This document shows, in pieces, positions 23,388 through 32,900 of a stretch of 64,000 bases of DNA (positions within the stretch are counted from its first letter, which is position 1; each line of letters opens with the position of its first letter). The notes beneath the pieces are model-generated. The model did not search any database, was not told where the DNA came from, and saw only the letters and a program-made list of their open reading frames with translations. The DNA comes from the human T2T-CHM13v2.0 reference genome, Homo sapiens. The translations under genes and the position numbers were made by a program. The stretch lies in NCBI RefSeq assembly GCF_009914755.1, contig NC_060935.1. The stretch is one strand, 5' to 3'.

Positions 23388-26300
23388 CTGTATTCAGGAA
23401 ACCCATCTAAAGTGCAGAGACACACATACGCTCAAAACTAAGGGATGGAAGAAGATCTACCAAGCAAAGGGAACACAAAAAAAGGCAGGGGTTGCAATCC
23501 TAGTTTCTGATAAAACAGACTTTAAACCAAGAAAAATCAAAACAGACGAAGAAGGCCATCACATAATGGTAAAGGGATCAATTCAACAAGAAGAACTAAC
23601 TATCCTAAATATATATGCATCCAATACAGGAGCACTCACATTCATAAAGAAAGTCCTTAGGGACTTAAAAAGAGACTTAGACTCCCACACAATAATAATG
23701 GGAGACTTCAACACCCCACTGTCAACAGAAGGCAGATCAATGAGACAGAAAGTTAACAAGGATATCCAGGAATTGAACTCAGCTCAGCACCAAGAAGACC
23801 TAATAGACATCTACAGAAATCTCCACCCCACATCAACAGAATATACATTCTTTCCAGCACCACACCACACCTATCCCAAAATTGACCACATAGTTGGAAG
23901 TAAAGCACTCCTCAGCAAATGTAAAAGAACAGAAATTATAACAAACTGTCTGTCAGACCACAGTGCAATCAAACTAGCACTCAGGATTAAGAAAATCACT
24001 CAAAACCGCTCAAAAACATGGAAACTGAACAACCTGCTCCTGAATGACCACTGGGTACATAAAAAAATGAAGGCAGAAATAAGGATGTTCTTTGAAACCA
24101 ACGAGAACAAAGACACAACATACCAGAATCTCTGGGACACATACAAAGCAGTTTATAGAGGGAAATTTATAGCACTAAAGGCCCACAAGACAAAGCAGGA
24201 AAGATCAAAAATTGACACCTTAACAACACAATTAAAAGAACTAGAGAAGCAAGAGCAAACACATTCCAAAGCTTTCAGAAGGCAAGAAATAACTAAGATC
24301 ATAGCAGAACTGAAGGAAATACAGACACAAAAAACCCTTCAAAAAATCAGTGAAACCAGGAGCTGGTTTTTTGAAAAGATCAGCAAAATTGATCAAGGAC
24401 TAACAAGACTTATAAAGAAGAAAAGAGAGAAGAATGAAATACACACAATAAAAAATAATAAAGGGGCTATCACCACCGATCCCACAGATATACAAATGAC
24501 AATCAGAGAATACTATAAACATCTCTACACAGGTAAACTAGAAAATCTAGAAGAAATGGATAAATTCCTCGACACATACACTTTTCCAAGACTAAACCAG
24601 GAAGAAATTGAATCTCTGAAGAGACCAAAAACAGGCTCTGAAATTGAGGGAATATTTAATAGCTTACCAACAAAAAAAGACTACAGGACCAGATGGATTC
24701 ACAGCAGAATTTTACCAGAGGTACAAGGAGGAGCTGTTACAATTCTTTCTGAAATTATTCCAATCAATAGAGAAAGAGGGAATCCTCCCTAACTCATTTT
24801 ATGAGGCCAACATCATTCTGATACCAAAGCCTGACAGAGATACAACCAAAAAAGAGAATTTTAGAGCAATATCCTTGATGAACATTGATGCAAAAATCCA
24901 CGATAAAACACTGGCAAACCGAATCCAGCAGCACAACAAAAAGCTTATCCAGTATGATCAAGTGGGCTTCATCCCTAGGATGCAAGGCTGCTTCAACATA
25001 TGAAAATCAGTTAACGTAATCCAGCACATAAAGAGAACCAAAGACAAAAACCACGTGATTATCTCAATATATGCAGAAAAGGCCTTTGACAAAATTCAAC
25101 AACACTTCATGCTAAAAACTCTCAATAAATTAGGTATTGATGGGATGTATCCCAAAATAATAAGAGCTATCTATGACAAACCCACAGCCAATATCATATT
25201 GAATGGACAAAAACTGGAAGCATTCCCTTTGAAAACTAGCACAAGACAGGGATGCCCTCTCTCACCACTCCTATTCAACATAGTGTTGGAAGTTCTGGCC
25301 AGGGCAATCAGGCAGGAGAAGGAAATAAAAGGTATTCAGTTGGGAAAAGAGGAAGTCAAATTGTCCCTGTTTGCAGATGACATGATTGTATATTTAGAAT
25401 ACCCCATCATCTCAGCCCAAAATCTCCTTAAGCTGATAAGCAACTTCAGCAAAGTCTCAGGATACAAAATCAATGTGCAAAAATCACAGGCATTCTTATA
25501 CACCAATAACAGACAAACAGAGAGCCAAATCATGAGTGAACTCCCATTCACAATTGCTTCAAAGAGAATAAAATACCTAGGAATCCAACTTACAAGGGAT
25601 GTGAAGGACCTCTTCAAGGAGAACTACAAACCACTGCTCAAGGAAATAAAAGAGGACACAAACAAATGGAAGAACATTCCATGCTCGTGGGTAGGAAGAA
25701 TCAATATCGTCAAAATGGCCATACTGCCCAAGGTAATTTATAGATTCAATGTCATCCCCATCAAGCTACCAATGACTTTCTTCACAGAACTGGAAAAAAA
25801 TTCTTTAAAGTTCACATGGAACCAAAAAAGAAACCACATTGCCAAGTCAATCCTAAGCCAAAAGAACAAAGCTGGAGGCATCACGCTACCTGACTTCAAA
25901 CTATACTAAAAGGCTACAGTAACCAAAACAGCATGGTACTCGTACCAAAACAGATACAGACCAATGGAATGGAACAGAGCCCTCAGAAATAATGCCGCAT
26001 ATCTACAACTATCTGATCTTCAACCAACCTGAGAAAAACAAGCAATGGGGAAAGGATTCTCTATTTAATAAATGGTGATGGGAAAACTGGGTAGCCATAT
26101 GTAGAAAGCTGAAACTGGATCCCTTCCTTACACCTTATACAAAAATTAATTCAAGATGGATTAAAGACTTACATGTTAGACCTAAAACCATAAAAACCCC
26201 AGAACAAAACCTAAGCAATATCATTCAGGACATAGGCATGGGCAAGGACTTCATGTCTAAAACACCAAAAGCAATGGCAACAAAAGCCAGAATTTACAAA

Positions 26301-29977: not shown

Positions 29978-32900
29978 ATGACAGGGTCAAATTCACACAC
30001 AACAATATTAACTTTAAATGTAAATGGGCTAAATGCTCCAATTAAAAGACACAGACTGGCAAATTGGATAAAGAGTCAAGACCCATCAGTGTGATTTATT
30101 TGGGAAACCCATCTCACATGCAGAGACACATATAGGCTCAAAATAAAAGGATGGAGGAAGATCTACCAAGCAAATGGAAAACAAAAAAAAAGCAGGGCTT
30201 GCAATTCTAGTCTCTGATAAAACAGACTTTAAACCAACAAAGATCAAAAGAAACAAAAAATGCCATTACATAATGGTAAAGAGATCAATTCAAGAAAAAG
30301 AGCTAACTATCCTAAATATATATACACCAAATACAGGAGCACCCAGATCCATAAAGCAAGTCCTGAGTGACTTACAAACAGACTTCTACTCCCACACAAT
30401 AATAATGGATACTTTAACACCCCATTGTCAACATTAGACAAATCAACAACACAGAAAGTTAAAAGGATATCCAGAAATTGTACTCAGCTCTGCACCAATC
30501 AGACCTAATAGACATCTACAGAACTCTCCACCCCACATCAACAGAATATACTTTCTTTTCAGCACCACACCACACCTATCCCAAAATTGACCACATAGTT
30601 GGAAGTAAAGCTCTCCTCAGCGAATGTAAAACAACAGAATTTATAACACTCTGTCTCTCAGACCACAGTGCAATCAAACTAGGACTCAACATTAAGAAAC
30701 TCACTCAAAACCGCTCAACTACATGGAAACTGAACAATCTGCTCCTGAATGAGTACTGAGTACATAACGAAATGAAGGCAGAAATAAAGATGTTCTTTGA
30801 AACCAACGAGAACAAAGACACAACGTACCAGAATCTCTGGGACACATTCAAAGCAGTTTATAGAGGGAAATTTATAGCACTAAATGCCCACAAGAGAAAG
30901 CAGGAAAGATCCAAAATTACACCCTACCATCACAATTAAAAGAACTAGAAAAGCAAGAGCCAACACACTCAGAACCTAGTAGAAGGCAAGAAATAACTAA
31001 AATCGGAGCAGAATTGAAGGAAATAGAGACACAAAAAATCCTTCATAAAATTAATGAGTCCAGAAGCTGGTATTTTGAAAGGATCAGCAAAACTGATAGA
31101 CCACTAGTAAGACTAATAAAGAAGAAAAGAGAAAAGAATCAAATAAATGCAATAAAAAATGATAAAGGGGATATCACCACCGATACCACAGAAATACAAA
31201 CTACCATCAGAGAATACTACAAACATTTCTATGCAAATAAACTAGAAAATCTAGAAGAAATGGATAAATTCCTCGACACGTACACCCTCCCCAGACTAAA
31301 CCAGGAAGAAGTTGAATCTCTGAATAGGCCAATAACAGGCTCTAAAATTGTGTCAATAATCAATAGCTTACCAACCAAGAAGAGTCCAGGACCAGTTGGA
31401 TTCACAGCCGAATTTTACTGGAGGTAAAAGGAGGATCTGATACCATTCCTTCTGAAAGGATTCCAATCAATAGAAAAAGAGGGAATCCTCGCTAACTCAT
31501 TTTATGAGGCCAGCATCATCCTGATAACAAAGCCGGGCAGAGACACAACCAAAAAAGATAATTTTAGACCAATATCCTTGATGGACATTGATGCAAAAAT
31601 CCTCAGTAAAATATTGTCAAACCGAATCCAGCAGCACATCAGAAGGCTTATCCACCATGATCAAGTGGGCTTCATCCCTAGGGTGCAAGGCTGGTTCAAT
31701 ATACGCAAATCAATAAATGTAATCCATCACATAAGCAGAACCAAAGACAAAAACCACGTGATTATCTCAATATATGCAGAAAAGGCCTTTGACAAAATTC
31801 AACAACTCTTCATGCTAAAAACTCTCAATAAGTTAGGTGTTAATGGGACGTATCTCAAAATAATAAGAGCTATCTATGACAAACCCACAGCCAATATCAT
31901 ACTGAATGGGCAAAAACTGGAAGCATTCCCTTTGAAAACAGGGACAAGACAGGGATGCCCTCTCTCACCACTCCTATTCAACATAGTGTTGGAAGTTCTG
32001 GCCAGGGCAATTAGGCAGGAGAAGGAAATAAAGCGTATTCAATTAGGAAAAGAGGAAGTCAAATTGTCCCTGTTTGTAGAAGACATGAATTGTATATCTA
32101 GGAAACCCATTGTCTCAGCCCAAAATCTCCTTCAGCTGATAAGCAACTTCAGCAAAGTCTCAGGATACAAAATCAATGTAAAAAATCACAAGCATTCTTA
32201 TACAGCAATAACAGACAAACAGAGAGCCAAATCAGGAGTGAACTCCATTCACAATTGCTTCAAAGAGAATAAAATACCTAGGAATCCAACTTACAAGGGA
32301 TGTGAAGAACCTCTTCAAGGAGAACTACAAACAATTGCTCGATGAAATAAAAGGATACAAACAAATGGAAGAACATTCCTTGTTCATGGGTACGAAGAAT
32401 CAATATAGTGATAATGGCCATACTTCCCAAGGTAATTTATAGATTCAATGCCATCCTCATCAAGCTACCAATGACTTTCTTCACATAATTGGAAAAAACT
32501 ACTTTAAAGTTCATATGGAACCAAAAAAGAGCCTGCATCGCCATGTCAATCTTAAGCCAAAAGAACAAAGCTGGAGGCATCACGCTACCTGACTTCAAAC
32601 TATACTGCAAGGCTACAGTAACCAAAACAGAATGGTACTGGTACCAAAACAGAGATATAGATCAATGGAACAGAACAGAGCCCTCAGAAATAATGCCACA
32701 TATCTACAACTATCTGATCTTTGACAAACCTGAGAAAAACAATTAATGGGGAAACTATTCCCTATTTAATAAATGGTGCTGGGAAAACTGGCTAGCCATA
32801 TGTCGAAAGCTGAAACTAGATCCCTTCCTTACATCTTATACAAAAATTAATTGAAGATGGATTAAAGACTTAAACGTTTGACCTAAAACCATAAAAGCCC

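What the first reader, a model, noticed from the sequence alone, without database searches (positions are those of the whole stretch)
23831..31773. L1#1 and L1#2 share a cluster of ~8 non-consensus ORF2 variants at a constant ~6.7-kb offset
Seen: ccccaCatc (23831/30536), ctatCcc (23875/30580), gcagtTtAtag (24151/30856), atcaGcaaa (24383/31087), gaattTtac (24712/31415), ccctAgg (24977/31680), ccacGtg (25055/31758) and aataTatgc (25070/31773). A ~68-bp identical run covers the last two. L1#3, and L1#4 where it overlaps, show the usual alleles, while #1 and #2 still differ between these patches. Inference: repeated direct-orientation conversion, or an old unequal exchange producing mosaic elements.
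Basis: partly seen in the sequence, partly recalled or inferred. Interest (0 to 1): 0.7.

Follow-up and report, generated by a model that had tools for sequence, protein, structure and literature searches.

The report
Short gene-conversion patches between neighbouring LINE-1s
Two old, broken LINE-1 copies 6.7 kb apart near the chromosome 11 centromere share two short patches of rare mutation pairs that almost no other copy carries, likely because one copy served as a DNA-repair template for the other (a known process), while their other shared changes are likely coincidence.

Summary
The shared variants are real. The constant offset is trivial: it is what two collinear copies give. #1 and #2 are separate insertions with their own target-site duplications, belong to different L1 age groups, and are the least similar of the six pairs in the window (89.9%). 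But the raw excess is modest: 11 shared rare alleles against 4 to 6.3 expected from recurrent mutation (P about 0.002 to 0.05, one of six pairs). The signal sits in two patches, A (87 bp, 2 mismatches) and B (70 bp identical). A tract scan ranks them above all 116 unlinked comparisons and nearly all simulations. Age-diagnostic alleles stay different between the patches, which rules out a shared sub-lineage, one continuous tract and a crossover mosaic. Best reading (0.7): two short non-allelic gene-conversion tracts plus about five coincidences. This process is known for neighbouring repeats and has no evident functional consequence in dead elements. Ape orthologues would be decisive and were not available.

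The parts
22340..27330 (+). L1#1 with its target-site duplication (22340-22360 / 27310-27330, 2 mismatches in 21): inverted 5' UTR piece about 22358-23365, sense body about 23391-27308; older age group; ORF2 broken
   Evidence: old allele at 22 of 30 diagnostic sites and 7 of 10 in the 3' part
27878..34044 (+). L1#2, full length, retains the 128-bp 5' UTR segment that #3 lacks; younger age group than #1; ORFs broken
   Evidence: young allele at 27 of 30 diagnostic sites and 10 of 10 in the 3' part
23820..23906 (+). Patch A in #1 (rare alleles at 23831 and 23875); outer bounds set by diagnostic sites are 23662-23906
   Evidence: 85 of 87 identical to #2; allele pair only in #1 and #2 of 3701
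30525..30611 (+). Patch A in #2 (30536, 30580); outer bounds 30369-30611; holds the only 2 old-type alleles of #2 among 30 diagnostic sites (30470, 30555), so the direction is likely #1 to #2
25034..25103 (+). Patch B in #1, 70 bp identical to #2 (rare alleles 25055, 25070; a third at 25027 just outside); outer bounds 25016-25308
   Evidence: allele pair in 3 of 8897
31737..31806 (+). Patch B in #2 (31758, 31773; 31730 just outside); outer bounds 31719-32011; direction not resolved
24153..24977 (+). Isolated shared rare alleles in #1 (24153, 24383, 24522, 24712, 24977; partners 30858, 31087, 31226, 31415, 31680), mostly or wholly recurrent mutation
   Evidence: flanked by private and diagnostic differences; 4.0-6.3 shared alleles expected by chance
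35088..41105 (-). L1#3 (comparison): 5'-inverted, lacks 128 bp of 5' UTR, youngest of the four; target-site duplication 35088-35103 / 41090-41105
60741..63612 (-). L1#4 (comparison): 5'-truncated and inverted; target-site duplication 60741-60750 / 63603-63612

Best explanation
L1#1 and L1#2 are separate insertions of different age groups, and two short stretches (about 70-290 bp each) were likely copied from one into the other by non-allelic gene conversion during DNA repair, while the remaining shared variants are likely independent recurrent mutations. Shown: separate target-site duplications, different diagnostic alleles, two rare allele pairs nearly confined to this pair, raised identity in the patches. 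Inferred: a break or stalled fork in one copy was repaired on the collinear neighbour 6.7 kb away without crossover, after both had accumulated private mutations; patch A likely went from #1 to #2; patch B is the more recent-looking event (0 mismatches against 12.4% between the patches).
For: Patch A: 23831C in 19 and 23875C in 16 of 3701 matches, both together in 2 (only #1, #2), 0.08 expected. Patch B: 25055G in 192 and 25070T in 35 of 8897, both in 3 (#1, #2, one old 78%-identical chr5 element), 0.76 expected. Tract scan: best tract 10.3 and best two 17.7, reached by 0 of 116 comparisons of #1 or #2 with unlinked copies. In redraw simulations the best-tract score was reached in 4-6 of 1500 and the two-tract score in 0-1 of 1500; with chance sharing inflated to a mean of 6.3-6.6, 4-12 and 0-1 of 1500. 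The only 2 old-type alleles of #2 among 30 diagnostic sites are adjacent and lie inside the bounds of patch A. Conversion between Alus under 10 kb apart is reported (PMC8230782, PMC6598467, passages).
Against: The raw count is weak under empirical calibration: 11 against 5.8-6.3, P 0.03-0.05, uncorrected for six pairs. A simple count of two patches is reached in 41-70 of 1500 inflated simulations and 117-139 of 1500 at double inflation. The motifs were chosen after seeing the data, so the genome-wide expectations overstate significance. Patch B lies in a region where many L1s are near-identical (32 further 69/70 full-length hits among 40 scored). One unlinked comparison scored 9.5. The old-type allele at 30555 also occurs in 2 of 12 copies of #2's own group. 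The panel is 58 best hits, biased to low divergence. No outgroup genome was examined.
Confidence: 0.7

Rival explanations
1. Pure homoplasy: #1 and #2 are the two most mutated elements here, so they hit the same alleles by chance and a pattern-seeking reader picked the coincidences.
For: Rare alleles make up 5.0% and 4.3% of non-CpG sites in #1 and #2 against a panel mean of 1.2%. 4-6 shared alleles are expected. Four-way informative sites show no excess for 12|34 (10, against 14 and 11). Count P is only 0.03-0.05.
Against: Tract scores exceed 116 of 116 unlinked comparisons and at least 1483 of 1500 simulations under every null tried; both allele pairs are almost confined to this pair genome-wide.
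Confidence: 0.2
2. One long (about 1.4 kb) heteroduplex between #1 and #2, repaired in a patchy way, so that most of the 11 shared alleles come from a single discontinuous conversion event.
For: All 11 shared rare alleles fall in L1 positions 2490-3891; none in 3892-5400 or 5420-6120.
Against: Only about 1.0 and 0.8 shared alleles are expected in those downstream parts. At 10 of 15 diagnostic sites between the patches #1 is old and #2 young, and identity there is 87.6%. The patches differ in apparent age.
Confidence: 0.06
3. #1 and #2 descend from one minor source element (sub-lineage) that carried these alleles.
For: None beyond the shared alleles themselves.
Against: Allele pairs absent from dispersed copies; #1 and #2 differ at diagnostic sites throughout, are the least similar pair and are not sisters in either regional tree (local support there is low).
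Confidence: 0.02
4. Tandem duplication or unequal crossover between #1 and #2 made mosaic elements.
For: Direct orientation and alpha-satellite setting favour unequal exchange in principle.
Against: Each element has its own target-site duplication at a different monomer position; #1 is 5'-inverted and #2 is not; no switch point in diagnostic alleles.
Confidence: 0.02

Closest known systems
Non-allelic gene conversion between neighbouring Alu elements (Aleshin and Zhi 2010, as summarised in PMC8230782 and PMC6598467; the original was not held)
   Same: Neighbouring copies under 10 kb apart share non-diagnostic mutations; partial tracts make hybrids of different subfamilies; donor-acceptor identity near the 89-100% range quoted in PMC8230782.
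   Different: Here the copies are L1 ORF2 sequence in monomeric alpha satellite, and the evidence is one pair in one assembly without orthologues.
Non-allelic gene conversion in human duplicate gene families (Harpak et al., bioRxiv 10.1101/135152, abstract)
   Same: Mean tract of 250 bp fits the bounds here (70-293 bp); the rate falls with divergence, which fits few tracts.
   Different: Paralogous genes rather than independent retrotransposon insertions; this pair is about 10-12% diverged.
L1-L1 homologous-recombination rearrangements (PMC9675761, passages)
   Same: Nearby L1s in direct orientation serve as recombination substrates (median similarity 93.5% for homologous events).
   Different: Those are deletions, duplications or inversions with a crossover junction; here both elements and their flanks are intact.
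L1 insertions in dead alpha-satellite layers (PMC2729386, passages)
   Same: Several L1PA-type insertions in divergent monomeric alpha satellite; that paper proposes a hypermutable phase for such arrays.
   Different: It dates layers by L1s and does not, in the passages read, describe conversion between embedded L1s.

Membership tests
Non-allelic gene conversion between repeat copies | Copies are independent loci, not one duplicated insertion | tested here: met
   Separate target-site duplications and structures
Non-allelic gene conversion between repeat copies | Excess of shared non-diagnostic mutations over recurrent mutation | tested here: inconclusive
   11 against 4.0-4.3 in simulation (2 of 1500) but against 5.8-6.3 empirically (P 0.03-0.05)
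Non-allelic gene conversion between repeat copies | Shared alleles clustered in short tracts of raised identity | tested here: met
   87 bp at 97.7% and 70 bp at 100% against 87.6% between them; scan above 116 of 116 unlinked comparisons and robust to inflated nulls
Non-allelic gene conversion between repeat copies | Flanks on both sides of a tract keep their own ancestry (no crossover) | tested here: met
   Diagnostic alleles differ on both sides of each patch
Non-allelic gene conversion between repeat copies | One-way transfer shown against an unconverted orthologue | not testable with these tools
   No ape or other human assembly was available (no relatives held); only a weak hint of direction for patch A
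L1 sub-lineage from a shared source element | Allele combination at many unlinked loci | tested here: not met
   2 of 3701 and 3 of 8897, the extra one an old unrelated element
L1 sub-lineage from a shared source element | Members share diagnostic alleles and group in a tree | tested here: not met
   22 of 30 old in #1, 27 of 30 young in #2; not sisters
Unequal-crossover chimaera or tandem duplication | Swapped or shared flanks and a switch point in diagnostic alleles | tested here: not met
Named L1PA subfamilies | Match to curated subfamily consensus | not testable with these tools
   No Dfam or RepeatMasker library here; only relative age groups from clustering and the 128-bp 5' UTR gap in #3 (compare the 129-bp loss in PMC5860796)

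The most novel reading that the evidence does not exclude
L1s stranded in dead alpha-satellite layers undergo both raised mutation and frequent short conversion with any neighbour, in either orientation and at about 10% divergence. All six neighbour pairs together share 19 alleles absent from the 58-copy panel against 6.9 expected (13 against 4.8 without the #1/#2 pair). If general, old centromere flanks keep exchanging sequence among embedded retrotransposons after satellite homogenisation has stopped, and embedded L1s could measure that rate.
Probability: 0.15. Interest if true: 0.55.

Novelty: new member of a known kind. Interest (0 to 1): 0.25.

Why it matters
Little on its own: both elements are dead and no gene lies in the window. 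It is a fair example that neighbouring L1s about 10% apart can still exchange short tracts, in a region thought to recombine little, and a caution that about half of such 'shared variants' are coincidence. It would matter more if a genome-wide scan showed the effect enriched in old centromere flanks.

Tried and rejected
Whole-element and sliding identity: no overall homogenisation. Long identical run as evidence in itself: rejected, other pairs have longer ones. Sub-lineage: rejected. The chr5 carrier of the patch B pair is an old element, 78% identical to all four window L1s. One continuous tract and crossover mosaic: rejected. An apparent shared allele at 26516/33217 lies beside an alignment gap and was dropped from then on; sites near gaps were left out of the later counts. 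The #2/#3 132-bp run first looked as strong as patch B (score 11.1), but its two adjacent changes occur together at 88 places in the genome, so they count as one event; with them merged the pair is not significant on count (P 0.15-0.18 at the loosest threshold, 0.01 at the strictest). Two other neighbour pairs that shared rare alleles (chr2, chr13) are 99.9% inverted duplicates and say nothing on this question. No close paralogue of #1 or #2 was among the 40 scored hits of each search (best 92% and 94%). The 5' UTR (positions 1-1015) was not tested for tracts, for lack of panel coverage. Aleshin and Zhi 2010 could not be read.

Full report
Setting. The window is mostly divergent alpha satellite with a period near 172 bp, holding four large L1 insertions. 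L1#1 has an inverted 5' UTR piece and a sense body from L1 position 2215 (positions counted on #2). L1#2 is full length. L1#3 and #4 lie on the minus strand and are also 5'-inverted. Each has its own target-site duplication. ORF2 is broken in all four.

Observation. All 8 of 8 motifs are present in both elements at offsets of 6703-6705. The offset is simply collinearity. The identical run is 70 bp. #1/#2 is the least similar of the six pairs over the shared body (89.9%; others 90.0-93.1%), other pairs have longer identical runs (106, 132, 136 bp), and four-way informative sites number 10 for 12|34 against 14 and 11. On identity alone there is no case.

Rarity. I built a panel of 58 unlinked L1s: the 29 best non-self hits to the region of #2 and the 29 best to the region of #1, each from 40 scored of about 9,500 and 12,600 candidates. 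It is biased towards low divergence. Whole-genome pattern counts: at patch B, 8897 copies match; 192 carry 25055G, 35 carry 25070T and 3 carry both, namely #1, #2 and an old chr5 element 78% identical to the window L1s. At patch A, 3701 match; 19 carry 23831C, 16 carry 23875C and 2 carry both, namely #1 and #2. Independence predicts 0.76 and 0.08. These motifs were picked after the fact, so the figures show rarity, not significance.

Ancestry. Clustering and trees gave a ladder of age groups (group labels are mine, and L1PA names could not be assigned with these tools). At 30 sites that separate the oldest group (11 copies) from the group of #2 (12 copies), #1 has 22 old, 6 young and 2 other alleles; #2 has 27 young, 2 old and 1 other. 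In the 3' part, with 20 of the panel elements extended, #1 is old at 7 of 10 sites and #2 young at 10 of 10. Between the patches #1 is old and #2 young at 10 of 15 sites, and identity is 87.6%. They are not sisters in trees of positions 2480-3900 (61 sequences) or 3900-5400 (59 sequences), with low local support. #3 lacks 128 bp of 5' UTR that #1 and #2 have, matching the 129-bp loss between L1PA3 and L1PA2 (PMC5860796, passages). So there is no shared source, no continuous long tract and no crossover switch.

Chance. #1 and #2 carry 163 and 136 rare alleles in about 3145 sites and share 11. Redrawing one element's rare alleles from a context- and site-specific model gives 4.0-4.3 shared, with 11 reached in 2 of 1500 runs in each direction. 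Calibration on real unlinked pairs gives 5.8-6.3 (P 0.03-0.05); for alleles absent from all 58, 6 against 2.1 (P 0.02). That is weak for one of six pairs. The clustering is stronger. A likelihood scan finds patch B (score 10.3) and then patch A (7.8) or a one-allele tract at 30849-30884 (7.4); 0 of 116 comparisons of #1 or #2 with panel copies reach the top score or the two-tract sum, the best being 9.5 and 13.9. With chance sharing inflated to 6.3-6.6, and with or without the window's own mutation spectrum, the top score is reached in 4-12 and the sum in 0-1 of 1500 runs; at double inflation 12-17 and 0-7. A cruder count of two patches is reached in 41-70 and 117-139 of 1500.

Mechanism. Shown: two independent insertions; two short patches with raised identity (85 of 87; 70 of 70) and rare allele pairs. 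Inferred: non-crossover repair of one element on its neighbour, at least twice. Outer bounds from diagnostic sites are 243 bp for A and 293 bp for B, in line with a mean tract of 250 bp in human duplicates (10.1101/135152, abstract). The only two old-type alleles of #2 lie within the bounds of A, which hints at transfer from #1 to #2; one of them also occurs in 2 of 12 copies of #2's group. Direction of B and all dates are open. The other five or six shared alleles match the number expected by recurrence.

Wider signal. All six window pairs together share 19 panel-absent alleles against 6.9 expected, 13 against 4.8 without #1/#2; the spectrum difference explains a factor of only 1.02. One site is counted twice, and shared local mutability that the panel does not capture could produce this. 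#1 and #2 both have more rare alleles upstream of position 3950 than downstream (5.9 against 3.9%, P 0.01; 5.3 against 3.0%, P 0.001), while #3 and #4 do not; this is unexplained. A hypermutable phase for abandoned alpha-satellite arrays is proposed in PMC2729386 (passages), but my panel is too biased to test it.

Literature. Conversion among neighbouring Alus within about 10 kb is described in PMC8230782 (part 1 of 4 read) and PMC6598467 (passages), both citing Aleshin and Zhi 2010, which was not held. L1-L1 recombination is described in PMC9675761 (passages). A 1991 title on L1 gene conversion was seen only in a reference list (PMC5640379). Eight searches, seen as listings, showed no title on this locus or on a genome-wide survey of neighbouring L1 conversion; the library lacks most subscription papers, and no supplements were opened.

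Verdict. Observation confirmed, interpretation partly supported. Two short conversion tracts plus coincidence, confidence 0.7; new member of a known kind; interest 0.25.

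Noticed in passing
window 27860-34881: One target-site duplication (27860-27877 / 34864-34881, 16 of 18 alike) encloses L1#2 together with a more diverged L1 3' fragment (34053-34860, 86-88% to the others) that has its own poly-A: likely a 3' transduction.
   Followed up: partly
window 34400-34800 and 44950-45953: Two solo-LTR-like inserts, one inside the L1 3' fragment and one in alpha satellite with a short flanking duplication; they resemble LTR7 and LTR13 (names recalled, not tested).
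   Followed up: no
window 22358-23391, 39953-41092, 62611-63600: Three of the four L1s are 5'-inverted; two inversions reach the very 5' end, and #1 lacks about 1.2 kb (L1 positions 1016-2214) at its junction.
   Followed up: partly
window 32924-33055 / 36078-36209: L1#2 and inverted L1#3 share a 132-bp identical run holding a two-base change found at 88 places in the genome: a possible third, inverted-orientation tract, suggestive only.
   Followed up: yes
L062 / L063 (G000:C3, about 101.08 and 101.11 Mb): Two inverted L1s 30 kb apart, 94.8% identical, share 4 rare alleles, one of them the one they were found by: another candidate for neighbour conversion or an old inverted duplication.
   Followed up: partly
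L064 / L065 (C2) and L066 / L067 (C13): Inverted L1-containing repeat pairs 4 kb and 22 kb apart at 99.9% identity over the fetched stretches.
   Followed up: no
window 23391-25130 and 30097-31830: #1 and #2 both carry about 1.5-1.8 times more rare alleles in the first half of ORF2 than downstream; #3 and #4 do not. Unexplained.
   Followed up: partly
window L1#1-#4: Private changes are richer in C>A, G>T and A>T and poorer in T>C than in the panel (chi-square 29, P 0.002).
   Followed up: partly
window 11426, 18525, 45953, 52065, 55135: Alpha-satellite orientation or register changes at several points in the self-comparison.
   Followed up: no
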